64,000 bases of DNA from Naegleria gruberi. Taxonomy: Eukaryota. Position 1 is the stretch's first letter; each line of letters opens with the position of its first letter. Under the pieces are notes generated by a model. The model ran no database searches. It worked only from the letters and a program-made list of their open reading frames with translations, and had not been told where the DNA came from. The translations under genes and the position numbers were made by a program. The stretch is from assembly GCA_000004985.1 (NCBI GenBank), contig GG738877.1. One strand, 5' to 3'. Below, in pieces: positions 142 to 14,648 of this stretch.

Positions 142-516
142 TTAGTGATATGAATCTTCATGGAGATAACCTCTGTACAAATCACCATGTCTTTTAATGA
201 ATTCAACTGAGTTCATTACTAATTTGTATAATGATTTCAAAGTAATAGATTCATGATAAAAGTTTCTCAATTCTTCAAATTGATAGTTAATATATTCATT
301 CCAATCTTCAATTATAAGTCTTTCATCAGTTGTTAGATCAATATTATCATTCATTGGAATTAAGTATTTGTATGTTGAATGATCATTTTCAAACTTCATT
401 ATTTTTCTTCTAATTGAATCATTAATTCCAGATTGCAGTATTGACAGAAACATAAGGAGCATCTTTAGTTTTGAAATTTGAAAATGTTGAATTAGAATCA
501 TCTCCTTCAGAAACAA
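142..516 (-). CDS. C-terminal exon of an F-box-like family protein, third member of the family at 39553-41019 and 41087-42514; the gene probably continues upstream or beyond the window edge
   Basis: 124-aa ORF. Its tail (TDERLIIEDWNEYINYQFEELRNFY) aligns with DENRLIDWAIGEFKEIFEQYFRNV in the 39553 ORF and with the equivalent C-terminal region of the 41087 ORF. No N-terminal F-box part is found in one frame. Confidence 0.35.
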   Translation of the reverse strand: MFLKEMILIQHFQISKLKMLLMFLSILQSGINDSIRRKIMKFENDHSTYKYLIPMNDNIDLTTDERLIIEDWNEYINYQFEELRNFYHESITLKSLYKLVMNSVEFIKRHGDLYRGYLHEDSYH

Positions 517-1361
517 GAATATTCCTTTGATGTTAATTTACAACAATTATTATGTTCAACAAATTAGTACCACTATCTTTAGTATATTTCACAAATTCAT
601 CAACTCCAGAGAATTCATTCAATTTATCAATTAGTGGAAAATCCTCACGCTTTTCAGATGGATATTTGGATCCAAATACATCCGCAAAGTCAAAATACTG
701 TGAGATGTTGTGGATCCTGTTTGGCGGAATCCCCTCTAATTAGTTTTTTACAAATTAAATCATTTATTTTTTCTTGGCTGGATTCAAATTCCTTCTTGAG
801 TGCTTAGGTAAAGGAATTCCTTTAATCTGTGATTTTCTTTCTTCTTTTGGAATTTCATTAATTTTAGGTGTTCTGTTGTTTCTATTGGTTCAGTTAGTTT
901 CTGGTTTTTCAGATTGAGATGAAGATGGAATAGAATTAGAAGAATATGGTTCAGATGAGTAGTTGTTACATTGCAAATTAATAAAAACAAGATTGAGAAC
1001 AAGTAATTATACTAATGGGTATTAAAGCTTAGGGACTGTTTCATCTTTAAGGTGATTCAGCCTTGAGACCTGCTTTAATGGATATAAATCTTTATTAGCA
1101 TTGGCTGTTTCGAATCGAAGAAGCGAGAGCAGAAGCACCTTGTGAACCAACCTTGGCGTTGTTTGAGTCTTTGCCAGGTGATATCTTTTGCTAATTGTTC
1201 TTCTTGTTCTTCTTCGTGTCTTGAACAGGAGGTGAAGGCATAACAGAACTATCAGATGAATTAGGTTATTGTGGTGATAATTTTTGAGCATGGAAAAATA
1301 CTCAACTTATATTTTATTAAGTTTACAATGAAAACAAGTTAATTCTTCACTTCGCTCAGAA

Positions 1362-1637
1362 TTAGACACCAGTGGCTGCTAATCCAACACGTCTTAAATA
1401 TCGTTTCTTGGATTTAGAATTAAGCACCCAATTACCCGCTGTAGCAATAATCACCTCAGAAACTCCCTTAGAAGCCAACTCGGTGGCTGTACCTATACGA
1501 AAGCTATGTCCAGAGACATGATTAGTTCCTACGGACATTGCATTCTTAATAATATATGATAGATCAGTTGTTTCTAAATACAGGTCGTCGAACAAAGAGA
1601 ATAATGGAGAATCTCCAGACTTGAAATGTTTAACCAT
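1362..1637 (-). pseudogene. Tyrosine recombinase (phage-integrase family) C-terminal catalytic fragment
   Basis: 91-aa ORF with HSFRIGTATELASKGVSEVIIATAGNW ... KSKKRYLR, i.e. the HxxR box and the terminal Tyr of Int-family recombinases. It lacks the N-terminal and central catalytic parts and lies outside the inverted-repeat pair. Confidence 0.5.
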
Positions 1638-1754
1638 TATCGAAGTTTACTGTGATAAATGGAATACCTAGGAGTTTTGTTAGACTTCCATCAAGGTTTG
1701 GTAAAAATTCCAGAAGACAAAAAGATTACAGCTTTAGAATTCATAGATCAAGAA

Positions 1755-1975
1755 ACAATTGGATGGATGGACAGGTTCTGATTATTTATATTCCATAAAA
1801 TGGGAGTATGTCAATGCACTAAGCCGCAGCAATAAGCTTGCAGAGTATCGAGTATTGCTTAGAACTTTTGCTGTTAACTAAAAAACTTACCAATTATCAG
1901 ACATTACAAGAAATTTCACAATTAATTACGAAGAACTAGATTGTTTTCTGTTAAAGCAACAATGTATTACTTAAT
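1755..1975 (+). repeat. Inverted-repeat copy A of the DIRS-like element
   Basis: About 93% identical to the reverse complement of 5965-6207. Both copies encode MDGWTGSDYLYSIKWEYVNALSRSNKLAEYRVLLRTFAVN on opposite strands. Confidence 0.8.
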
Positions 1976-2351
1976 TATTAATAAATTTATTTTTAAAAAA
2001 TCCTTGTGTTGAATCTATCGGATAATCCGGATCCAGGATTCACGTTTTTATTGGAATCTTGGATCCAACTGATCCGTGTGGGATTTGGATCAAGGATTTT
2101 CCATCCCCTAGGTGTAGGGAATACTTGTTGTGCATTATGTTGTGGAGGTCTAGTATTAATTAAAAGATTGATTCTGTTTATTGGTTTTATCTTTTTATCT
2201 TTATTCATCATCTCTTTTGGGGTTTTCTTTGGAATGATTGTTTACTATTTTGAAACAGAAGACATTCTAGAATTAGATATAGATTAATAGACTTCCGGAA
2301 AAAGTTTTGCTAAAAGTCGACTTTTTTAAGGTACTTTCACGCTAATTTGCA

Positions 2352-2378
2352 AAAAGGCGCCTAAAAGGTGCCTTTTTT
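2352..2378 (+). other. 10-bp GC-containing hairpin followed by a T-run, inside the retroelement region
   Basis: aaaaggcgcc-taaaa-ggtgcctttttt. The stem has one G.U pair and is followed by T6. It is unusual in otherwise AT-rich non-coding DNA. Confidence 0.3.
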
Positions 2379-5300
2379 ACTAAAAACTACTTGAAACACA
2401 TCCAAAGTTTGTTCAAGAAAATCTTGAGCAACTTTCAAACTGTTTTCAAATAATTCCTCAAAACGTTCAAGTATTTGCTGAAAAAACCCCAAGGGCCTTC
2501 AAACTTCTGAACTCACTCTCTTTCTTAACTATATCCCATCCAAAAAATCCACCAATTCCTTAAGAGATCCAAGGTTTTTGAATGTCACCTGGTAATTGTT
2601 CTATAATGTCCTTTAACTCGGCACTCATAATTGCAGAGTAGAGGTCACCATCAGATTTTTTAAATAGATTAAAAATATTTTTTGCCCATAGTAGATTGCA
2701 TTTTTGTATTTTGGGCGTAAGTTCCTCTATAGTTGAAAATAAAGTTGTGTTTTCCATTCCGTCAATACTACTCAGTGCTGATGCTAACGTGAAAAGAGCC
2801 ATATCAGAGTTGGAGGCTGAATTAGTTGGACAGGAGGCAAAAGAGCTTTGTGATAGGGATCTGGTGAGAATCATAATGTATTTTTTTTTAAGTCTAAAAT
2901 TATTGGTTGCCAAGACTCCAAGTTTGCAATGTCGATAATGGCTGAAAATGCAAAAAATCAAAGAACTGAAGAAGGGAATTCGCTGTGGGTTTAATCAATT
3001 TTTTGAAATTAGGCAACATACAAGACTCCACCAACAGAGTATTTTGTTCAATTCCATACGGTGATTGGGTCAAAGTGCTTACTGGAATGTTATCAAAGAA
3101 TACCACATTTCCATTTAGTTTTACTTTACGAGAGTGGATAGATATAATTGAGATACTAAAAATGTTCGAATTACCTTTCCATTATTGGAAATATTTGACT
3201 ATGCAATCCCCATACGCTCTATTAGCCCTTCATCTACATTTATCCATATCTGAAAACTTGAGTTGTGAACATAATTATTTATTGGGATTAAAACCTGATA
3301 TGTATTGGTTTTCAAGTTGAAAAAATAACAAAACAAGGAGATTTGTTGGATCAGGCATTCACAAACCTATGGAAAAACTCTTTACATATCTTTTTCGGGA
3401 CTGATACTGAAGCTGTGAAATGGTTTGTTCAAAATGACAAGGATAATTTCTTTTCTTGGAACACAACAATCACTTCTTTACGCAAATGTTTACGTTAAGG
3501 TATTGAGAACTGCCTAGAGAAATTTAAAACTATTAAAAACAAATGTGTTACGTTCTGTTACTTATATTGTAGGAAACAACAACGAGATTATGGGCAAAGA
3601 TTAATCAATTCCTTACTACCAATCTTATTTACTGTTTTGCTTGGTGTTGTTGATTTTTGTGCCTTTCAGGGTAATTCTATTATCCTAGATTCTACTGCTT
3701 TTGCTGTAGACACTGGTTTATCAATTGCTAATGCTATACTTTCACTCGCCTCTTCGATAGGGAATGCAGTCCTCCCAATGCAGCAAGTGTTTATAACTCA
3801 ATCGTGAAAGCACTTGTTGATGCTGTTGATTCAGGAGGTGGTTTGTTTACAAAGTTCCCTCCTTCAAGTATTGAAAAAGATTGTCCTTCATAGAGTATAA
3901 TGAAGGGCAATCTTTCTTGGATAATCTACTTTGATACTAGATTACGATAAATTATAGAGGTCTCCAGGTCTTGCTAATAATCTGAAACCAATAATTAAAA
4001 TGGCTGTAGTTAAATTAAATGTGAATTCATCGTGGGAAGCCACGGAATCAATATAATTCTTAATATCATAAGCTGAAACTCCATTTCTTTTTAGTTTCTT
4101 TCTATCAACAATGTAAGTATACCTTAAGTCCTTTCTTTAGTCTAGCAAAACTATTGGGAACATTAAGTTTCCAACCTTCAACGTTGAAGAACGAGAAAGA
4201 ATTGAAGAGCTGGCTTCAAATTGTTTAAATCATACCCTTTCTTATTAACTGAAAGGTAAGCTGCAAAGCATTCTATTGCATAAGGATTAGATCTTGGAAT
4301 ATTGTGAATCACTAAGAACCATTGGAAAGCTCCATAAACTTTGGAATATTTCTGAATGGTTGAATTGGCTAGAGAAATTGATAGGTAATTTCTCATCAGT
4401 AATATAGTTGACCGTTCACTTGAGCTACCAGGAATGTTTGATCTTCGAAGTTGTTGAATAATTCGGTGTACGGATCCACGATAAGCATTCTTCTTGGAAC
4501 CTTTCTTACTTTTAAGGATATCCTTAATAGTATTGGGAACCAATGAGAAGTTGGCCACTCCGGCACTACAAAAGTTCCCTTCGCTCTCTAATTTGATTAG
4601 ATGGAAAAGTGCTTGGGGAATCAGACCTAAAGGAGGCACGCAATAATTCAGTTAGTCTTTCTCCCAGGGTTGACCGAATGCATCGGTTTCCATCCAACTG
4701 TTGTATGTTATTGTCACGGCGAATGGGTCTACTGTATGGTGACCGAATTCTTCTACCAAATCTATCAATTCTTGCGAAGATTTCCAATCTCCTAATCTGC
4801 TTAGTCTGTCTGCAATCTTGTTTTCTCTTGATGGGATGTTGACTACTTTGCTGATGTGCCAATCTTCTTTGATTAAGATTATCCAAATGTCTCTTGCAAT
4901 TTCGGATAAATGACTGAGATAGCCGTAACCTTTTGCTACATAAGATAGAGCTGTAGAGTTGTCCCCTCTTATTTCAATGTGAGTATCTTTGGGAAACAAT
5001 CTCAATCAGCTTGCTTCTTTGAAGAATTGAAATATCGCTATCAATTCTTTCACGTTGAATGATGAATCTATTTCGAACTTGCCTACGACGATAGTTTTTG
5101 AGGAGTGGATTGCAAATCCTTCCAGAGATGCATCTGAATTGATTATTATTGACTCTGGAGCGTCGAGTATTAACCAAGAGCCTTTGGATGATTGGATAAT
5201 TTTTCGTAATACCCTCAAATCTTTGGCAGGGCCTCGATTCACTAGCATACTTCCTTTTGAATCTACTCTTATTGTCATTTGCTTTCTTAAACTATCCAGA

Positions 5301-5964
5301 AATGGTCTGATCGCCGGATCTGCCAGAGATAGAAATTCCATCTTTCCAATAAACTTGGCTATGAATCTTGTTTGTGCTTAAACCGAACGGAAGGCATTGA
5401 AAGTGGTATGTTTTGCCTTCGAAGATGAATCCTAATAGGACTTTGTTGTTTCCTTACTGGAACTTGAAAACAACCTTTCTTTAAATCCAACTTGCATGCC
5501 CACATCCCTTTTCTTATGAATTTCATAACTTTTTGAATGGATTCCATCTTGAGTGAGTCTGTGCTTTTGCCATCGTTTATCTTTCTTAGGTCCAAGATAA
5601 ACCTCTATTCGGCTGAACCTTTCTTTGGGACAACGTTGATAGGATTTAGAACTGGATTTAAAGAATAGGTTATAATTTGGTTTTGTAACATGGAGTCAAT
5701 CTCTCTCCTTATCCATGCTTTCTCTTTCTGAGAGAACTCCTCTGGTGGTAGTTTTTCCATTGGCTGGAATCTGAATCGCTTCAAAACCACCAGAACCGGC
5801 ACCCAATTTAATGGCAATATAATTTAAGTCAGCAATATTCTGGATGAATTCAATAGCTTGAAGCCATTCAACTAAATCAAAAGAGTACCATTTCTCAATC
5901 TTTTACAAACTTGTACAATAATGTGAGATTGGGCTAGTAGTAAAGGATAACCTTTACTTCTAAA

Positions 5965-6207
5965 TTCTTTTGAAGTAATACATTGTTGTTTACACTTGCT
6001 TTAACTGGAAAACAATCTAGTTCTTCGTAATTAATTGTGAAATTTCTTGTAATGTCTGATAATTGGTAAGTTTCTTCGTTGACAGCAAAAGTTCTAAGCA
6101 AAACTCGATACTCTGCAAGCTTATTGCTGCGGCTTAGTGCATTGACATACTCCCATTTTATGGAATATAAATAATCAGAACCTGTCCATCCATCCAATTG
6201 TTTCTTG
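5965..6207 (-). repeat. Inverted-repeat copy B, the terminal repeat next to the RT end of the DIRS-like element
   Basis: Reverse complement matches 1755-1975 (for example caagaaacaattggatggatggacagg ... gcagagtatcgag). It lies immediately 5' of the minus-strand RT fragments. Confidence 0.8.
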
Positions 6208-6904
6208 TTCTTCTTTAATTTCCTCTCTTTGATTCTTTTAATTTGCCTAATTTGACATATCAGTCTAGTGCCTTTTTGTCAAATTGTAAAAAATAATCAC
6301 CTTGTTTCAATATTGTCAGTTCATCATTTAAATTAATATCTTCTGATTCATTAAATTGAGAAAGTATTTGGAAGATAATTGACTTGTTTCTGAGCAAAGT
6401 TGTAATTGTTTTTGTTTGTCAAATCTTCTAGCTCTTGCAACATCACACGAGTACTTATTTGCAAAAGTAAGATGTCATCTTTATCCATAAACATAGATAC
6501 AAGTCTTGATTTCAATTCTTTAACATCTTTACCAATTCCTGAGAATGTTTATTTATTAACGTTTGAAATTGTTCCATTAAAAATTGGAAGTGCAATACAC
6601 AAATGTTTATTCATATGATTTTACATTGAAAAGTGTCGAGAAACATTAATAAGGCAAGCCCGTATTCTTTACCGTACTAAAAGACCATCCAAGATTTAAA
6701 CATTCATTTAGATTTTTTTCAAAATCTAAAGAAAGTGTTTCAGAATTTTTCCTTCTGAAACTTTCATCAAATAGAGTAAACTAGTTTGATAATAATAAGC
6801 ACGTATTCTCTTAATTACTAAATTATAAACATGCCTATCTTATCTCGAATACTTGCTTTTTTTAAATTAATTGTTCAAGAATTTAAGGAATTAGGCGGGA
6901 AAAA

Positions 6905-8246
6905 ATGAGCACAAATACAACAACATGGCAATCATCCACAAATAAACAACAATACAAGCACCTCCATCGATCGGCAACACAGATACAGGTATGTTGTTGT
7001 GTAATTTTCTTATTGTTATAATGAATTAGAGCCAATGGAGAGGTCATAAAACAAGGAAACAGATCACAGATTGGGCAATGAAGGAATTTGAAAATATTGT
7101 GATGGAGATCGAAGGAAAGGATTCGGAAATATCTTGGAATTCATCGAAGTTGCATTCCTTACCAATGCCATCTGTTTCAAATACAAAATTGAGGTAATTT
7201 TCAAAGAATTTAAATATTTGAATTAAAAATCGGAAATTGATAATCAAATAATGTAGTGAGGATGAAAATGATTTGGATAGGATTCTATCAAACTTTGTAA
7301 ATAGGAATGATGCTTCACCTTCATCGTCATCAAATGAACCATCTAATCAACCAATATTCATGAAGAATGCTCAGAAATTATTCGAGGAAAAACTGAAAGA
7401 AGCATTTCAGGAACCCTCGGTTCAAACCCCAGAACCTCAAACTCTAAATACTGGTATGAATACATCCGTAATGAACATTCCTAAAATTACAAAAGAACAG
7501 GAAATTCAAACAGAAACACTCAGAACCTCAATAATATCTAAAGAACCTCTGCAAGCAATAACTCCTCAAAATAGAAGACTTGTGACAGTTTCCACAAACA
7601 CCAGTATTGCATTTGATGGAATTCCAAAAATTCAAGAACAAAAAACTCAAGATTTATCTATTGAAATACCTCTCGAAGATACTTCATCAGTTCAATCACA
7701 AGAAGATTTGTCAGACATGTTAGATGAAAGTGCCATAATGATGTCTAATTTGGACATGCTTAAAAGTTTTGATTTCTCAGAAATGAAGAAATCATCAGAT
7801 AGCACCATTTCAACCCAGGCACCAACCAAATCAAAGGAGCCATTCATGCCTCAACAACCAATTCAATCAAAACAAAATGTTTCAAACGATTTCAGTACAA
7901 CTAGATTGAAACAGAGCCAAGAAATTCCACCATCCAAAAACAACTCTATCCTTTCCAATAATAATACTACCAACAATTCTATCAAGTCCAATTTGACTGC
8001 CTCTGTAAATCAAACCACTCCCTCACCTAGCTCATCACAAACTAGTGAAAAATTGCAACAACAGCAAAAACAAGCCAAACAAGAATTACAACAACAAATG
8101 AACATGCTACGATATGAAATTCAATTGGCTGAGGAAGCCTATTCGAGGAGAAAAAAGGTAAGTTGTCTATTTTCATATTTCGAGATTTGTTTACATTTTC
8201 AATGAATAGGAACTTGTTGAAGAAAGGAAGAGGCACATTAGGTAAA
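6905..8246 (+). CDS. Ser/Gln/Asn-rich hypothetical protein, 4 exons (6905-6988, 7030-7193, 7257-8157, 8211-8246)
   Basis: ATG at 6905 in an aaaaATG context. Intron boundaries are gtatgt..aattag, gtaatt..aatgtag and gtaagt..gaatag, and all keep the frame into the 7273-8205 ORF, whose M is an in-frame TTG. The last short exon gives ELVEERKRHIR*. No recognisable domain. Confidence 0.5.
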
Positions 8247-8953: not shown

Positions 8954-10087
8954 TTATCTTCTTCTATAATCATGTTGAGATCTACTATAGGAATCAGAGT
9001 GATGTCTATCACGGTAATCATCACGATGATAGGAAGAGGATGACGAAGAATGATGATTGTCAAAGTCTCTTCTATCTCCTCTGTCTCTGTATCCTCCACC
9101 TCCACCATTGTAAGATGATGATCGTCCACCACCTCCAGATGAATATCTATCATCATGACCTCCTCTATTATCCCTTCTATTGTCATGTGAGGAACTTCTA
9201 TTATCGTGTGAATAGTATGAAGATGAGCTACTACTGCTTGGAGCGTAGCTAGCTGGTTCTGAAGGTTGTGGAACTGGTTCATTTTCTGGCCTCTTTCTTT
9301 TCAGTTCATAGTAGTCATTGTAATCATTTCCTTTCATTTGTTTATAGTGATCTCTGTCAGCAATTAATTGTCTCTTGTCATTAAAAGTTCTATTTTCTCT
9401 TAATTCTTTCAATTTTTCTCTAACTTTTTGGAAACCCAAGTGAGCCTTACCAGCAAAGTGATCAGCCAATCTCTGGTCACTTTCATTTACACTCAATAAG
9501 GCACCACAAATTTCACAGACAATAAGTTCTTGTGTATCTCCGATTTTTTGTGTTGGGGCTTTAGCTTCCACAGTTTCCTTTTCCTTCTTTAAACTATCCA
9601 ATCTTTCCATGAGTTTGTGTGCTTCTTCATATTCTCCTTCCGTTGTTAATTCTTCAATTTGTTTTGTTACTTTATCAATTTCCTTCTTGATATTTTGTAA
9701 TTCCAATGGTTCGTTATTCTTATTTAAATCCTTTTTATGTTGTACATCCAATCTCGATTGTGCTTTAGCAATTTTTTCATCGCAATTATCTTGTATTTGT
9801 GCTAATATTTGTTCCAATTTATGTTCATAATCAAAGTTGAGAGTTTTCTTTTCCTCTTCGAATTGTTTTTTAAATTTCGGAGGAACAGGACAACAAAGAA
9901 ATGGACAAGGTCCCAAGTCGAATTTTGTATTTGGAAATAATTTATATGGACACAAGCCTAGTAGATCATATTTACAAACTCTTGGATCGGTAAAATGTTC
10001 AATGATTAAATCCTGTCGATCTCCATTCCTATTTACGCCCATCAATTCGTCCAACAAGGCGGAAAAGTTTCTAGTTGCTGTGATCAT
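8954..10087 (-). CDS. LUC7: LUC7-like U1 snRNP splicing factor with an RS/RD-rich C-terminus
   Basis: N-terminal LLDELMGVNRNGD...FTDPRVCKYDLLGLCP matches LUC7 (LLDQLMG..RDGD..FTD.RVCK..LL..CPH), as does the second zinc finger CEICGALLSVNESDQRLADHFAGKAHLGFQKVREKL. The C-terminus is RDR/SSS/YRDR-rich. Confidence 0.85.
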   Translation of the reverse strand: MITATRNFSALLDELMGVNRNGDRQDLIIEHFTDPRVCKYDLLGLCPYKLFPNTKFDLGPCPFLCCPVPPKFKKQFEEEKKTLNFDYEHKLEQILAQIQDNCDEKIAKAQSRLDVQHKKDLNKNNEPLELQNIKKEIDKVTKQIEELTTEGEYEEAHKLMERLDSLKKEKETVEAKAPTQKIGDTQELIVCEICGALLSVNESDQRLADHFAGKAHLGFQKVREKLKELRENRTFNDKRQLIADRDHYKQMKGNDYNDYYELKRKRPENEPVPQPSEPASYAPSSSSSSSYYSHDNRSSSHDNRRDNRGGHDDRYSSGGGGRSSSYNGGGGGYRDRGDRRDFDNHHSSSSSSYHRDDYRDRHHSDSYSRSQHDYRRR

Positions 10088-10298
10088 TTTTTTTATTAAT
10101 TTTTATTTTGGATTTATTGATATTTGAATGTGTATCGTTGTGTTCTAATAATATTATTATATTTATTGAATCAAAGCAAGATATTGGATATTGTTATCAT
10201 GATGATACCTATTGGTTTAAACACAATGGAACAAGATTACCATAAGAATTATGTAACGGTTCCCGCGCTAAGAGATTCATGAACAAATTGGAAAAAAA

Positions 10299-12727
10299 AT
10301 GAAGAGGAGTTTAGCTTCTTCATCTTCTTCATCTTCACCTCCAACAAACGCTAGAACAACAACAGAAAGCTGTTCATCAACACCTCCCAAGCAAAATGTT
10401 TCAGAGAGTAATAATAGTAATAATCCTCAACAATGTAGAACTCCAAAGAGAAAGATGATATCTCTGAAATCTTTGATGTCCAGTCTGCATTGCTCTCCGA
10501 TTAAACCAATCAATACCAACAACAATATTTCTGGATTGTATGATAGTAATGAAGATCATGTTGTGGCTTCTTCAAATAATTGTACAAGAATCACCACATC
10601 AATTAGTAATGCTGATAATAACCAGATTAGTAACAGAAATCAAGAGACTCACCTTACACCACCTTTATTCCCTGTTAGTGACGAATTAGATAGAAAGTTA
10701 ATGCCATCACCAAGGAAGAAAATCACACTTCGAGTTAAATCTTCCCCTAAGAATAGTACTAGTAGTAGTTCAGGAACAACAACACCAGCAGCAAAACATC
10801 ACGACAATACCAAAACACCCCTCACCATTTACAGCACGAGAGTAGCAGACTCTTGTTCATCATCTGATTACCACAGATCATCCACAGCAGTCGAATCACC
10901 ATGCCCATCACAACCAGTTGTTGAAAATATTCCCATGGATCAAGTAGTTGGTTTCTTCTTTTTATACGAAAGTCATGAAAGTTTGAAACAAGCAACTTAT
11001 TGTCAGGTTGTGCCATTAAGGAAAGGTAAAAGTTTGATATCAAGAAAGGGGGCTGATGAAGTAATTAGAAATAAGAAATTACCATCCTTTGATCATTGGA
11101 TTTGTATAGATAGGACTTATATTTCAAGAGTACATGCTCTAGTAGAGGTATCGAATGGAGAGTTTGTATTTGTAGAGGATCTCTCATCCTCAAATAGTAC
11201 TCACATTGTGGAAAAAACTGAAAAGAGGAAGATTAATGTAAATATTGAATCTAACAAGTTATACCAATTGAGGGATTGTAATTATATTCTTTTTGGAAAG
11301 TTATTATGTCAGTATAGAGAAAATTCAGAATTGAGTGAACAATCAGTATCTGAAGCTATGCAGGTTTATTACAAATCTTGTAATGCAACCAAGACACCAC
11401 AAAAACCAAAGAAAACTCCACAGCTTACCGCTTCTAGAGATGGATCTCAGAGACAGAGAATGTCAACAATACCTGAGACTCCTGAATTTAACAGACCTTC
11501 AAAACTTCCTTCAATAAGGGATAAAATTGTACCACCAACAGTTTATGCTGACAGAACATCCAAAACATCGGCATTGGCATTCGAAACACCAAAACGTATT
11601 CAAGAGTGTTTGAAAACTCAACAATCAGAAAATCCAATCCTCTCCATTGAACAAACCCCTCCATCCATATCTAAGCCATCCTCGAGCACATCGAGTGGTT
11701 TTGTAACACCATCCAATGTTGTAATAGTAGAAACTCCAAGCAATGGTTCATCAAATGATAAGAAAGACTCTCCCCAAGCTAGTGATCAGAGTGATCATCT
11801 CAACCTTACAGACATTGATCTTTCTTCTTTAAGCTTACCTGATGAATTATTTGAGGACATTGAAGAACATGAGGAAAAGAAACAGGAATCAACCTTAGAG
11901 GATGAAATGTTGGAGGATGAAATAGTTTTAACCGATTATGACGATGAAGAAGAAAATGAAAGGAAAAGATCGTTTGAGGATGAAGAGGAATCTTTTATTG
12001 CTCCAAAGAAAAAGAAGCTAAAGACAAAGAAGAGCGATCATCAAAGTCCACATATTTTATTTACTGGAATTTCACCAACAGAGGAAAATATTAAAGCTAT
12101 AGAAAGGTTAGGAGGCGTTCTAGTCGAAGAACCAGAGGCAGAGTTGTTAGCTTCAAGATTGACTCACCTCATAACAGACAAGATCAGAAGGTTTGTATTT
12201 TGCTTTTAATTATACGAAAACATTTCAAAATAAGAACTGTAAAATTCTTGTGTGCTTTGGGCAGTTGTCCAAATATTGTGACAGTGGAATGGTTGGAAAA
12301 GAGTGCCAGATCGAAATACTTTATTGATGAAGAAGGATACTATTTACAAGACTTGGAAGGTGAACAAAAATTCAACATGTCACTCATTGAGGTAATGAAC
12401 AGAAGGGATAGACTTTCCCGTAAGCTTTTTCACAAAATGAGTTTCTTCCTCACTAGCAATATTCAACCACGAGTGGAAGAAATGAAATTAATTATTGAAT
12501 GCAATGGTGGAACAACTATACCAACTCTGAACGGTCTCAAATCTGAACTTGGAATCCATAACAGAGTTTTTGTAATCACTACTGAAAATGATGTAAGTGT
12601 TCGAAAATTTCTTTTTTTACTAAATTTTAAAAGAGAGCTTATTGTACCAAGAGCCTATTTCCAATATTTTCTGATTTTGGAGTGGAAAATTTGGAAAATC
12701 ATTTCTTTACCAACGAATTTATTCTAA
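10299..12727 (+). CDS. FHA-domain plus tandem-BRCT-domain protein (MDC1/Nbs1-like DNA-damage mediator architecture); 2 exons (10299-12190, 12235-12727)
   Basis: FHA-like segment (WICIDRTYISRVHALVEVSNGEFVFVEDLSSSNSTHI); Ser-rich linker; first BRCT (HILFTGISPTEENIKAIERLGGVLVE...LTHLITDKIRR) continuing across a 44-nt gtttgt..aataag intron into RTVKFLCALGSCPNIVTVEWLEKS; a second BRCT-like segment follows. Confidence 0.6.
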
Positions 12728-12839
12728 CCTCTGTCATCAATCAAAATATTATTAAGAACAGTATTACAAAGTTTAACATTCACCCAACACAAAATAATGG
12801 ATCTAACTTTTCCAAGCTGGTAATTAAAAGAAAATAATT

Positions 12840-14648
12840 TTATGCCATATCAGATATTTCCTTATCCTGTCTCAATCTTGAGAGGCTATAGGCTGGGGAG
12901 GCTTTTTTAGTAGGCAGAGATCTACCAACAATTGAGGCTCTAATATTCCATTCATCCTCTGAATCGGACAATTGAGCCGGAGATGCTGATCTAAGAGTCT
13001 TCTTATCAGCATTACCAAATCTGTAAATCTTTGCATCAGAACCAACAAGATTGACTTCACCATCTTCGTCTTCTCTGAATTCCATAGCACTCACTGATCT
13101 TTGATTGGCAATCTTATCAATTATACTGAGGGCACTTAGAGTTTGATTTGAAAGTGGTCTACTACCTGCATTACTGACATCTGTTGCACTCTTCTTATTT
13201 GGAACGTTACCCTTTTGCATCTTGTGGTATGCACTGTTACCGAAAATATGAGGCATTCTTTCCTTTGGTGGAGAGGTAGTGCTTCTATTAACAATATTCA
13301 GTGGATCATCCTGCGTAGATTTGATCTTCTTGGCCGATGGACGAGCTTCTTCACGAACAATTGAATTGGCCATGTTTTGGCTATTTGAGAGAGGAATGCT
13401 TTGACGCCTCGAAGGGCTACCATTAGAGGAAGCAAATGAAAAATTGGCTGTTGGTGGATTTTCCTTAAGTTGCAGAACTTCCTTATCCAATTTGGCATAC
13501 ATTGACATGATGAATTCATAGTCTGCCTTAATCTTTTCCAATTCCTTAACATTTGATTTGAATCCTAGCAAGTGATAGACATCCTTCTTTTCCATTTTGG
13601 TATTAATTTTATCCTCCAAATCCTTCTTTGTGGCATGAATATTCAAGTTGAAATCTTCCCTCAAATCTTGCTTTACAGCAGCAATTCTATGTTGAAGAGT
13701 ATCCTTAAGAGTGTCTACATAATCCTTGAGCTCATTAACCTTTGTTTGGATTTTAGTTAATGTTAAATCGCCCATATTTAGTCTGAGTGGAGCTGAAAGA
13801 TCTGAAAGACTGTTCACACTTTGAGAACTTTCTTGAGATTCTAATGGGTAATGTCTTTCAAGTGGTGATCCACTTTCTTTAGCTGTATTTGGTTCTGAAA
13901 GTTTCCTCAAGTCAAAATTATCTGGCGTAGTATATACATTTTCTTCCCTAGAAAGCTTTCTCTTAGATTTCTTCTTGTCTACAAGTGGAGTTGATTCTCC
14001 TTTGGATTTTTTATCGTCCTCCAGTATGTCATCAATTTCTATTTCTGCATCTAGTGTAATGTTTGTTCCATTATTCTTATTGAGAGACTGATTAATTCTG
14101 GAAAGTCTTGATTGTAACTTTTTAAAGTTTTCAGAATATTCACGAATAGAATCTTCCATCCTAATAGTTCTGTATTCCAATCTGTCAACCAATTGTTGGA
14201 GTGATGATGTTTTTCTGTCAGCCTTATTAGACAATTCTATCGTTGTTTTTAAGTTGTCGGTTATGGCACTATCCACTTCTTTCATTTTGTCTGCATACCT
14301 AGTTTTAAAATCTATAATATCAGCCGTTATGGAAGACACTTCTCTATCGACTGATGTTTTTACACTTGTATGAATATCTCTTCTGACACTATCAACAAGA
14401 GCTTCGTGACTTTCTTTCAGAGAGTCTCCAAACTGTATTTTAACGTCTTCCTTGACCTGATTTAGTTGTTTCCTTAATTCTGCCTGTGTAACAAATGTTT
14501 GTTCTAGTGCTGCAATACGAACGGAATTGTTTTCCGCCGTGTTGAGAATTTCCTTCAGCACTAGAATCAAATTACTCATATTAATGTTCGTATGAACATT
14601 AATAAGGTTTTCTAGTAGCAGGGAGGCATCTCCCGTTTGATTTACCAT
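12840..14648 (-). CDS. Long coiled-coil protein with a Ser-rich C-terminal half, function unknown
   Basis: 602-aa uninterrupted ORF with a heptad-rich N-terminal 350 aa and no catalytic motifs. Confidence 0.5.
   Translation of the reverse strand: MVNQTGDASLLLENLINVHTNINMSNLILVLKEILNTAENNSVRIAALEQTFVTQAELRKQLNQVKEDVKIQFGDSLKESHEALVDSVRRDIHTSVKTSVDREVSSITADIIDFKTRYADKMKEVDSAITDNLKTTIELSNKADRKTSSLQQLVDRLEYRTIRMEDSIREYSENFKKLQSRLSRINQSLNKNNGTNITLDAEIEIDDILEDDKKSKGESTPLVDKKKSKRKLSREENVYTTPDNFDLRKLSEPNTAKESGSPLERHYPLESQESSQSVNSLSDLSAPLRLNMGDLTLTKIQTKVNELKDYVDTLKDTLQHRIAAVKQDLREDFNLNIHATKKDLEDKINTKMEKKDVYHLLGFKSNVKELEKIKADYEFIMSMYAKLDKEVLQLKENPPTANFSFASSNGSPSRRQSIPLSNSQNMANSIVREEARPSAKKIKSTQDDPLNIVNRSTTSPPKERMPHIFGNSAYHKMQKGNVPNKKSATDVSNAGSRPLSNQTLSALSIIDKIANQRSVSAMEFREDEDGEVNLVGSDAKIYRFGNADKKTLRSASPAQLSDSEDEWNIRASIVGRSLPTKKASPAYSLSRLRQDKEISDMA

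What the first reader, a model, noticed from the sequence alone, without database searches (positions are those of the whole stretch)
1362..6207. Degenerate DIRS-like tyrosine-recombinase retroelement with 220-bp inverted repeats, apparently interrupted or nested
The minus strand carries RT, RNase H and tyrosine-recombinase fragments in several frames. A pair of about 220-bp inverted repeats (1755-1975 and 5965-6207, about 93% identical) brackets about 4.45 kb, the size expected for DIRS1-type elements, which use inverted rather than direct terminal repeats. The recombinase catalytic C-terminus (HxxR..Y, 1362-1637) lies outside the left repeat, separated from the recombinase N-terminal and central part (about 3700-4639) by about 2 kb. 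This suggests a nested insertion, rearrangement or two element copies. The repeats themselves encode a conserved 40-aa peptide (MDGWTGSDYLYSIKWEYVNALS...).
Basis: partly seen in the sequence, partly recalled or inferred. Interest (0 to 1): 0.55.

Follow-up and report, generated by a model that had tools for sequence, protein, structure and literature searches.

The report
Decayed, nested tyrosine-recombinase retrotransposon in Naegleria
This is a dead, scrambled copy of a DIRS-type "jumping gene" in the amoeba Naegleria gruberi, broken by a piece of a second such element; the 230-bp inverted repeats are real but are not its ends, so the locus is ordinary genomic debris.

Summary
The window is Naegleria gruberi nuclear DNA (standard genetic code). 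The minus strand carries a dead retrotransposon of the DIRS order, with the gene order ORF1, RT/RNase H/methyltransferase-like pol, tyrosine recombinase (YR). It matches intact environmental relatives at E = 1e-202. The intact YR P0037 is 85-90% identical to its YR fragments.

The copy has lost the first 198 codons of ORF1, about 430 nt across the ORF1/pol junction, and 114 pol codons including the YxDD motif. It also has at least 5 in-frame stops and at least 6 frame changes.

The inverted repeat is real: 1745-1972 against 5973-6211, 93% identical with gaps and 98% over 204 nt. It is not the element's terminal repeat:
- The right arm abuts ORF1 codon 199.
- The left arm lies inside a 2.24-kb block that splits the YR gene.
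- The element continues past the left arm to about 950-1100.
- Relatives have no such sequence, and their 3' ends are followed by 5' ends in direct orientation.

The block begins, exactly at the YR break, with the 5' terminus and a pol fragment of a second Naegleria family on the opposite strand. The "nested" reading is therefore supported and the "DIRS1-type ITR" reading is not. Degenerate DIRS-like copies in this genome were reported in 2011. Interest is low.

The parts
5973..6211 (.). Right arm of the inverted repeat ('X-R'). No homology to anything retrieved. Its inner end abuts the truncated ORF1.
   Evidence: 222/239 identical to 1745-1972, inverted; no protein, HMM or DNA match to relatives
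5790..5979 (-). ORF1 (gag-like) C-terminal fragment of the main family-A element. It starts at about codon 199 of 368, so the 5' UTR and ORF1 codons 1-198 are missing.
   Evidence: tblastn with L001/L006 ORF1; ORF1 HMM positions 198-229 match 5979-5884. The lower boundary is approximate.
5373..5777 (-). pol: N-terminal part of the RT (P0001 aa 86-221). It has an in-frame TAG at 5605-5607 and two frame changes. About 430 nt (ORF1 end plus pol aa 1-85) are deleted just upstream.
4399..5368 (-). pol: end of the RT thumb, RNase H and methyltransferase-like domain (P0001 aa 336-667). It is joined directly to aa 221, so 114 codons including YxDD are deleted. In-frame stops at 5006-5008 and 4652-4654; frame change near 4587.
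   Evidence: Dam-like domain in relatives
3873..4543 (-). Tyrosine recombinase N-terminal and central part (P0037 aa 1 to about 225), overlapping the pol 3' end. Two frame changes, a stop at 3942-3944 (W to stop), and a stop in the HKTD motif.
3876..3915 (.). Short palindrome (16-nt arms, 8-nt loop) at the point where YR homology decays.
   Evidence: same palindrome in L002 at 1388-1427; read directly
1973..3872 (.). Unassigned 1.9-kb part of the interrupting block. No coding signal and no homologue.
   Evidence: Rfam, tRNA and tandem-repeat scans were negative. The last 192 nt also occur in contig L002.
1745..1972 (.). Left arm of the inverted repeat ('X-L'), inside the interrupting block. 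It has an in-frame TAA where the right arm has GAA.
1655..1751 (+). Fragment of the pol gene of a second family (family B, L003-like; pol aa 258-288), on the opposite strand.
   Evidence: blastn to L003 2004-2096 at 95.7%; tblastn 87% aa; pol HMM
1637..1659 (+). 5'-terminal/junction sequence of family B (22/23 identical to L003 4084-4106), placed exactly at the break in the YR gene.
   Evidence: unique in the window; 0 of 100 shuffles give a match
1365..1637 (-). Tyrosine recombinase C-terminal catalytic part (P0037 aa 256-347; GHSFRIG, GNW, KRYLRR). About 30 codons between this and the N-terminal part are missing.
   Evidence: weak Phage_integrase match
1101..1368 (-). Family-A 5' region in direct orientation after the YR: junction sequence TTCTGAGCGAAG, the motif CATGCTCAAAAATTAT, and the start of ORF1. 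This is a head-to-tail or nested second partial copy.
   Evidence: blastn and local alignment to L006 3-94; nhmmer L006 3-330 matches 1368-1101, E = 3.5e-10; alignment A2. Homology below 1277 is weak.
951..1029 (-). Remnant resembling the YR stop region plus the left arm of the family's junction palindrome. This is the probable 3' limit of the element debris.
   Evidence: 23/23 identity to L088 4859-4881; local alignment to L004 3970-4047, reached by 4 of 200 shuffles. Weak beyond the 23-mer.

Best explanation
The locus is a graveyard of tyrosine-recombinase (DIRS-order) retrotransposons in the Naegleria gruberi nuclear genome.

**Main element.** One family-A element lies on the minus strand, from about 5979 down to about 950-1100. 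When intact, such an element would be transcribed and reverse-transcribed by its RT/RNase H. Its YR would then insert it by site-specific recombination. That mechanism is taken from what is established for the DIRS order; it is not shown here. This copy cannot function:
- It lacks its 5' end and ORF1 codons 1-198.
- It lacks about 430 nt at the ORF1/pol junction.
- It lacks the RT catalytic core (114 codons including YxDD).
- It carries at least 5 in-frame stops and at least 6 frame changes.

**Interruption.** The YR gene is split by a 2.24-kb block, with about 30 codons lost. The block opens with the 5' terminus and a pol fragment of a second resident family (family B, L003-like) in the opposite orientation. 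This means a nested insertion followed by internal deletions and illegitimate recombination. After the YR C-terminus comes a further 5'-end fragment of a family-A element.

**Inverted repeat.** The 230-bp repeat is a module of unknown origin present at two mosaic junctions. One copy lies inside the block and one replaces the element's 5' part. It is not the element's terminal repeat.

**Shown:** the homologies, breakpoints, deletions and family-B terminus. **Inferred:** the order of events and the origin of the repeat.
For: - **Organism.** Five window ORFs are exact matches to N. gruberi proteins on a 394.7-kb scaffold. The standard code fits.
- **Homology to intact relatives.** The search gave E = 3.7e-202 to 7e-111. 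Relative contigs carry ORF1, pol (RVT_1 84-93 bits; Dam 36.8 bits in P0006) and YR (Phage_integrase 28.6-39.9 bits).
- **Map of the fragments.** tblastn and HMM searches give the layout.
- **Colinear YR halves.** Both halves are on the same strand at similar divergence from P0037 (87-90% and 85%), and together they miss only aa 226-255.
- **Family-B terminus at the break.** The match is 22/23 and unique in the window, with 0 expected by chance. It is followed by L003 pol nt 2004-2096 at 96%.
- **Family B lives in this genome.** YR proteins in the same 90% cluster as L003's YR are annotated N. gruberi proteins (EFC46444, EFC36890).
- **Continuation past the left repeat arm.** L006 5' region and the L088 23-mer.
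- **Repeat absent from relatives.** No match to 88 fetched loci or to the pol, YR and ORF1 HMMs.
- **Setting.** The rest of the window is ordinary host genes.
Against: - The origin of the inverted-repeat module and of the 1.9-kb remainder of the block is unknown. Only the first 115 nt of the block are demonstrably family B, so 'nested insertion of a family-B element' is proven only for that end.
- The break removed about 90 nt of target and has no recognisable family-B 3' end, so it is not a clean integration.
- Contig L002 crosses the 3873 breakpoint at about 99.5% identity while its 5' part is 86-95% identical. This could mean the rearranged unit was itself copied, or that the assembly is chimeric.
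- Homology below 1277 is weak.
- The full N. gruberi assembly could not be searched.
Confidence: 0.8

Rival explanations
1. A single DIRS1-type element is bounded by about 230-bp inverted terminal repeats (1745-6211). The YR C-terminus outside it belongs to something else.
For: - The repeat is real and well conserved, and it brackets 4.47 kb.
- DIRS1-like elements are defined by inverted terminal repeats (PMC3266345; PMC4157794).
- The right arm lies upstream of ORF1, where a left ITR would be.
Against: - The right arm abuts ORF1 codon 199, not a 5' UTR.
- The bracketed unit has no YR C-terminus. The missing part, colinear and equally diverged, lies about 100 nt outside the left arm.
- A family-B terminus and pol fragment sit between them.
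- No relative contig contains the repeat.
- Relatives show direct, not inverted, 3'-to-5' adjacency, and their unit is 4.0 kb.
- No internal complementary regions matching the arms were found.
Confidence: 0.05
2. There are two independent truncated family-A copies rather than one split copy. One copy is 3'-truncated in the YR at 3873. The other is 5'-truncated in the YR at 1637. Unrelated DNA and other debris lie between them.
For: - The gap is not a clean insertion: about 90 nt of YR are missing, and only one end of the block looks like an element terminus.
- The locus clearly contains pieces of at least three elements.
Against: - The two pieces are on the same strand, in the right order, and resume within 30 codons of each other at similar identity to P0037. 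By my rough estimate this would happen by chance only a few percent of the time.
- The family-B 5' terminus lies exactly at the resumption point, as expected for an insertion junction.
Confidence: 0.1
3. This concerns only the nature of the repeat and is compatible with the main explanation. The 230-bp module is a short interspersed or non-autonomous repeat family of Naegleria, comparable to SIRE, the short derivative of VIPER in trypanosomes. Two copies happen to lie 4 kb apart in a transposon-rich spot.
For: - Both copies share the same two sharp boundaries although all four flanks differ.
- They are only 2-7% diverged.
- SIRE-type derivatives of YR retroelements are known (PMC6681497).
Against: - There are no further copies in 64 kb, in 88 related loci or in JGI metagenome contigs (a 22-mer gave 0 hits).
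- There is no target duplication, clear terminal inverted repeat, or tRNA/Rfam similarity.
- Neither copy looks like a simple insertion, because the flanks are not contiguous in relatives.
- The alternative is a local inverted duplication made during repair or template switching. I rate that about equally likely.
Confidence: 0.3

Closest known systems
DIRS1-like retrotransposons (Dictyostelium DIRS-1 type; DIRS order, DIRS group)
   Same: - RT, RNase H and a Dam-like methyltransferase domain followed by a tyrosine recombinase, with no DDE integrase and with overlapping pol/YR ORFs.
- Nesting of elements into one another, as is well known for DIRS-1 (my own knowledge).
- Degenerate copies in N. 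gruberi were already listed as putative DIRS1-like sequences: 7 copies in 6 families (PMC3266345).
   Different: - The defining long inverted terminal repeats plus internal complementary regions were not found at the ends of this element or of its intact relatives.
- Relatives instead show the 3' end followed by the 5' end in direct orientation. In L003 and L004 the junction is a palindrome of about 100 nt.
PAT-like elements (Pat1, Toc, kangaroo; DIRS group with split direct repeats A1 ... B1-A2-B2)
   Same: - A methyltransferase-like domain is present.
- A copy of the 5' region (A2) follows the YR in direct orientation in L003 (246 nt or more, 97%), L004, L088 and the window.
- L088 has exact 48-nt direct repeats after the YR stop that could be B1/B2.
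   Different: - No single contig shows the full A1-B1-A2-B2 set.
- The same data fit tandem or nested copies.
- No phylogeny against reference PAT or DIRS1 sequences could be made with these tools.
VIPER/SIRE of trypanosomatids and Ngaro elements (the other YR retrotransposon groups)
   Same: - They encode a tyrosine recombinase plus RT/RNase H.
- VIPER occurs in another discoban lineage and has a short non-autonomous derivative, SIRE (PMC6681497).
   Different: - Ngaro and VIPER lack the methyltransferase-like domain (PMC4157794), which is present here.
- By my recollection of the VIPER literature, VIPER places the YR before the RT. Here the order is ORF1-pol-YR.

Membership tests
DIRS order (tyrosine-recombinase retrotransposons) | RT and RNase H together with a tyrosine recombinase, instead of a DDE integrase, in one element | tested here: met
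   Window fragments align to intact pol (E = 1e-202; pol HMM matches 5766-4396) and to YR (HMM matches 4390-3873 and 1637-1365). In relatives RVT_1 and Phage_integrase score above Pfam cut-offs. No integrase domain appears in any close relative.
DIRS group (DIRS1-like plus PAT-like, as opposed to Ngaro and VIPER) | Methyltransferase-like (Dam-like) domain after RNase H | tested here: met
   PF05869 Dam scores 36.8 bits (cut-off 28.1) in P0006 and weaker in P0001 and P0005. The homologous stretch is retained in the window within 5368-4399.
DIRS1-like (sensu stricto) | Inverted terminal repeats at the two ends of the element | tested here: not met
   The only long inverted repeat (1745-1972 / 5973-6211) is not terminal. 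One arm abuts ORF1 codon 199, the other is inside the block that splits the YR, and the element continues beyond it. Relatives lack the sequence and have no long inverted repeats.
DIRS1-like (sensu stricto) | Internal complementary regions matching the outer ends of the terminal repeats (circle-junction logic) | tested here: inconclusive
   Self-comparison found no internal region complementary to the 230-bp arms. L003 and L004 do have a palindrome of about 100 nt between the YR stop and the 5' region (z = -6.1 and -5.3). If the element is linearised at the apex, this would give short inverted ends. That was not demonstrated on a genomic copy with flanks.
PAT-like | Split direct repeats A1 ... 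B1-A2-B2 | tested here: inconclusive
   A-type repeat: L003 61-306 = 4079-4324 at 97%, and the window 5' region after the YR. B-type repeat: L088 4056-4103 = 4746-4793 at 100%. The full set was never seen on one contig, and tandem or nested copies explain the same data.
Autonomous (functional) element | Intact ORFs with the RT YxDD motif and the YR catalytic residues | tested here: not met
   114 pol codons including YIDD are deleted. There are 3 stops and at least 4 frame changes in pol. The YR has 2 frame changes and 2 stops, and lacks about 30 codons; its HKTD lysine region is destroyed.
Ngaro / VIPER | No methyltransferase-like domain (and, by my recollection, YR placed upstream of RT in VIPER) | tested here: not met
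   The Dam-like domain is present. The gene order is ORF1-pol-YR in L001, L003 and L004 and in the window. The absence of MT in Ngaro and VIPER is from PMC4157794.

The most novel reading that the evidence does not exclude
Naegleria, and perhaps Heterolobosea more widely, hosts its own still-active lineage of DIRS-group retrotransposons in several families, with intact ORF1-pol-YR units of about 4.0 kb. The ends of these elements would be defined by a palindromic junction of about 100 nt and a conserved CATGCTCAAAAA motif, rather than by long ITRs. New copies would integrate preferentially into the YR 3' region or junction of resident copies. Two 5' termini land in one YR gene in this window, and 3'-end repeats pile up in L088. 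If true, this would settle the 'uncertain' status of DIRS-like elements in excavates and give a compact system for studying YR-mediated retro-integration.
Probability: 0.3. Interest if true: 0.4.

Novelty: already known. Interest (0 to 1): 0.17.

Why it matters
For this locus, very little: it is inert debris between ordinary host genes.

The by-products are mildly useful. Piednoel et al. 2011 could not confirm DIRS1-like elements in N. gruberi because the copies they found were too degenerate. Here, intact ORF1-pol-YR relatives appear in assemblies that also contain N. gruberi DNA at 99.6% identity. Intact YR ORFs of the same lineage sit unrecognised as 'predicted protein' in the N. gruberi proteome.

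Those sequences would allow a proper phylogenetic placement of heterolobosean YR retrotransposons and a definition of their termini. They also show that the inverted repeat should not be used to delimit or classify the element.

Tried and rejected
1. **Ciliate-type code.** I considered this as an explanation for the in-frame TAG/TAA codons. It was rejected: long ORFs exist under the standard code, and the organism is N. gruberi.
2. **Repeat as a fragment of ORF1 or RNase H.** One weak blastp hit (E = 0.013 in a 36-sequence set) was not reproduced by the pol, ORF1 or YR HMMs or by tblastn. Rejected.
3. **Repeat as a tRNA-derived SINE or known RNA.** ARAGORN, Rfam and TRF found nothing.
4. **More copies of the repeat.**
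   - A protein search with the repeat peptide plus all ORFs of the block gave no hits.
   - A 22-mer scan of JGI metagenome contigs gave 0 hits.
   - blastn and nhmmer against all 88 fetched loci gave none.
5. **L002 as the orthologous locus of another strain.** Rejected. Host DNA of the same sample is 99.6% identical, whereas L002 is a mosaic of 86-100% identity with a different 5' truncation. It is a paralogue or a chimeric assembly.
6. **Inversion between the repeat arms as the cause of the split YR.** Rejected, because the two YR halves are colinear on the same strand in the present arrangement.
7. **A second YR C-terminal copy at 1166-1092.** The alignment was weak (reached by 9 of 200 shuffles). 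nhmmer explains the region better as the ORF1 N-terminus of the L006-type 5' region.
8. **Fetching genomic loci of the annotated N. gruberi YR genes to see true termini.** They are not on record in the contig index.
9. **JGI metagenome search for close relatives with flanks.** Only one close hit was found, on a 2-kb contig.


Full report
**Source and setting.** The window has 34% G+C and long ORFs under the standard code; no stop-codon reassignment is needed. Five of ten large ORFs are exact matches to Naegleria gruberi NEG-M proteins on a 394.7-kb scaffold. The rest of the window holds ordinary host genes: LUC7, a ribosomal L30-domain protein, an FHA protein, a class II aminoacyl-tRNA synthetase, a Kelch protein, a GCN2-like kinase and an importin-like HEAT protein. 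The finding therefore lies in a gene-rich part of a eukaryotic nuclear genome.

**The observation.** The inverted repeat is real. The ungapped match is 204 nt at 98% (1745-1948 / 6008-6211). The gapped match is 222/239 (93%), spanning 1745-1972 / 5973-6211 (E about 1e-100). It is the only long repeat in the first 10 kb, and no further copy occurs in the 64 kb.

The retroelement signal in the window fragments alone is weak in Pfam: RVT_1 E = 0.0076 and Phage_integrase E = 0.0032. A conceptual translation nevertheless finds intact relatives at E = 3.7e-202 to 7e-111. The contigs of these relatives carry three genes in the order ORF1 (gag-like, no Pfam hit), pol and YR. In the relatives:
- RVT_1 scores 84-93 bits.
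- The Dam-like methyltransferase domain reaches 36.8 bits in P0006.
- Phage_integrase scores 28.6-39.9 bits.

This is a DIRS-order element of the methyltransferase-bearing (DIRS1/PAT) group.

**Anatomy of the main element (minus strand).** Coordinates come from tblastn, blastn and HMM searches.

| Segment | Window coordinates | Notes |
|---|---|---|
| ORF1 C-terminal part | about 5979-5790 | from codon 199 of 368 |
| Deletion | just below 5790 | about 430 nt lost (ORF1 end plus pol aa 1-85) |
| pol aa 86-221 | 5777-5373 | |
| Deletion | between 5373 and 5368 | 114 codons lost, including YIDD |
| pol aa 336-667 | 5368-4399 | RNase H and methyltransferase-like domain |
| YR aa 1 to about 225 | 4543-3873 | overlaps the pol 3' end, as in relatives |
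| Foreign block | 1638-3872 | 2,235 nt |
| YR aa 256-347 | 1637-1365 | contains GHSFRIG, GNW and KRYLRR |

pol has three in-frame stops (5605, 5006, 4652) and at least four frame changes. The YR has two frame changes and two stops (read). P0037, an intact YR from an ENA metagenome assembly, is 85-90% identical to all four YR pieces. It shows that only about 30 codons (aa 226-255) are missing at the break. The copy is dead.

**The element does not stop at the left repeat arm.** Directly after the YR C-terminus, window 1368-1277 is 80% identical to the first 92 nt of contig L006, which holds the closest intact pol. nhmmer extends this match to L006 nt 3-330, corresponding to window 1368-1101 (E = 3.5e-10). 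This is the family's 5' region:
- a junction sequence (TTCTGAGCGAAG),
- a motif, CATGCTCAAAAA(A)ATT, conserved in L003 (both copies), L004, L006, L007 and L088,
- then the start of ORF1 (alignment A2).

Further down, window 1029-1007 is 23/23 identical to L088 4859-4881, a copy of the YR-stop region. Window 1023-951 aligns weakly to the left arm of the L004 junction; 4 of 200 shuffles reach the observed score.

**What interrupts the YR gene.** The block starts at 1637-1659 (+ strand) with TTATCGAAGTTTACTGTGATAAA. This is 22/23 identical to L003 4084-4106 and unique in the window, and no shuffle produced a match. In L003 this sequence lies 5 nt inside the boundary of the direct repeat (61/4079), that is, at the 5' end of the element unit.

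It is joined, at an ATAAA microhomology, to L003 pol nt 2004-2096 at 95.7% identity (window 1655-1747). The YR was therefore hit by a second family (family B) in the opposite orientation, and that insert was later gutted. Family B belongs to this genome: the L003 YR clusters at 90% or more with the annotated N. gruberi proteins EFC46444 and EFC36890.

After the family-B pol fragment comes the left repeat arm (1745-1972). Then come 1.9 kb with no detectable homologue, coding signal, RNA family, tRNA or notable tandem repeat. The far end of the block has no recognisable family-B 3' end. It coincides with a short palindrome (3876-3915).

**What the inverted repeat is not, and what it might be.**
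- The right arm abuts ORF1 codon 199.
- The left arm is joined to the family-B pol fragment on one side and to unassigned DNA on the other.
- Both copies have the same two sharp boundaries, and all four flanks differ.
- Neither copy behaves as a simple insertion, because its flanks are not contiguous in relatives.
- The sequence matches no relative contig, no pol, YR or ORF1 profile, and no protein.
- A 22-mer from it is absent from JGI metagenome contigs.

It is thus a discrete module sitting at two mosaic junctions. It is either a local inverted duplication made during repair or template switching, or a member of a short interspersed family. The window alone cannot decide between these. The 'conserved peptide' only reflects the nucleotide identity; the left copy carries a stop.

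**Terminal architecture of the family.**
- In L003 the YR stop is followed after 32 nt by a 97% copy of the element's own first 246 nt or more, including the ORF1 start. The spacing is 4018 nt.
- In L004 and L088 the YR stop is likewise followed by the junction region and the CATGCTCAAAAA motif.
- In L003 and L004 the interval between the YR stop and the 5' region is a palindrome of about 100 nt (DNA folding z = -6.1 and -5.3; 0 of 200 shuffles fold as well).
- The apex of that palindrome coincides with the L003 repeat boundary, the L006 contig start, and both 5'-end fragments in the window.
- L088 has exact 48-nt direct repeats after the YR stop.

These features are direct redundancy. They fit PAT-type split direct repeats, tandem copies or nested copies. 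They are not long ITRs (definitions from PMC3266345; PMC4157794; PMC6681497). No contig with both flanks could be obtained. The N. gruberi loci of the annotated YR genes are not in the contig index.

**Ambiguity about contig L002.** A sample that contains N. gruberi DNA at 99.6% identity (L087 against window 9688-13672) also yields L002. L002 matches window 5264-3681. Identity is 86-95% in its 5' part and 99-100% in the last 400 nt, which cross the 3873 breakpoint. Its 5' truncation also differs from the window's. It is either a paralogue that shares the breakpoint or a chimeric assembly. I could not tell which.

**Comparison with what is known.** Piednoel et al. 2011 screened this same genome and listed 7 DIRS1-like sequences in 6 families. 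They left their status 'uncertain' because of frameshifts and indels. The N. lovaniensis genome paper lists 89 DIRS fragments. A degenerate DIRS-like copy in N. gruberi is therefore already known in kind, and this locus is an ordinary example.

What I did not find described is the existence of intact relatives and the junction architecture noted above. These concern the relatives, not the locus under review.

**Verdict.** Novelty: already known. Interest: low.

Noticed in passing
L003:4036-4150 and L004:3990-4110 (relatives): A palindrome of about 100 nt lies between the YR stop and the element's 5' region (DNA fold z = -6.1 and -5.3). The arms differ in sequence between the two families, but the structure is kept. 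Its apex coincides with the L003 repeat boundary, the L006 contig start and both 5'-end fragments in the window (1637 and 1368). It is a candidate circle junction or recombination site.
   Followed up: partly
window 1280-1296 (-); L003 132-150 and 4150-4168; L004 4121-4131; L006 76-94; L007 8-22; L088 4178-4193: The motif CATGCTCAAAAA(A)ATT is conserved at the nucleotide level upstream of, or at, the ORF1 start in families whose pol proteins are only about 50% identical. Several contigs begin or end at it.
   Followed up: partly
L088:4056-4103, 4746-4793, 4808-4849, 4859-4881: After the YR stop there are exact 48-nt and 42-nt direct repeats of the YR-stop region, plus a fourth variant that is 23/23 identical to window 1029-1007. 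This is either a split-direct-repeat (B1/B2) structure or a pile-up of 3' ends from nested insertions.
   Followed up: partly
N. gruberi proteins EFC46444, EFC36890, EFC47282, EFC40713, EFC41855 (partial: EFC35640, EFC35398, EFC35343, EFC35411): Full-length tyrosine-recombinase ORFs of this retroelement lineage are annotated only as 'predicted protein' in the N. gruberi proteome, on at least five different scaffolds. The genome is therefore not limited to degenerate copies. Their loci could not be fetched.
   Followed up: partly
L087 (ENA ERZ929261 / run ERR1078381) against window 9688-13672: A sample labelled 'metagenome' contains DNA 99.57% identical to N. gruberi NEG-M over 4 kb. The same sample yields an intact three-ORF element (L003), a contig with an intact pol and a cut-off YR (L005), and the mosaic contig L002.
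   Followed up: partly
window 3876-3915: A palindrome (16-nt arms, 8-nt loop: AAAGATTGCCCTTCAT ... ATGAAGGACAATCTTT) lies exactly where homology of the YR gene decays. It may be a footprint of the rearrangement, for example fold-back repair.
   Followed up: no
window 2350-2378: A G+C-rich hairpin followed by a T run (AAAAAGGCGCC-TAAA-AGGTGCCTTTTTT) stands out inside the otherwise A+T-rich unassigned 1.9-kb block. The overlapping Rfam hit (AgrB, E = 0.51) is noise.
   Followed up: no
window 7273-8205 (+) and 142-516 (-): The ORFs flanking the transposon debris have no Pfam domain. The 310-aa ORF is low-complexity (S/N/Q-rich). I did not establish whether these are host genes or further debris.
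   Followed up: no
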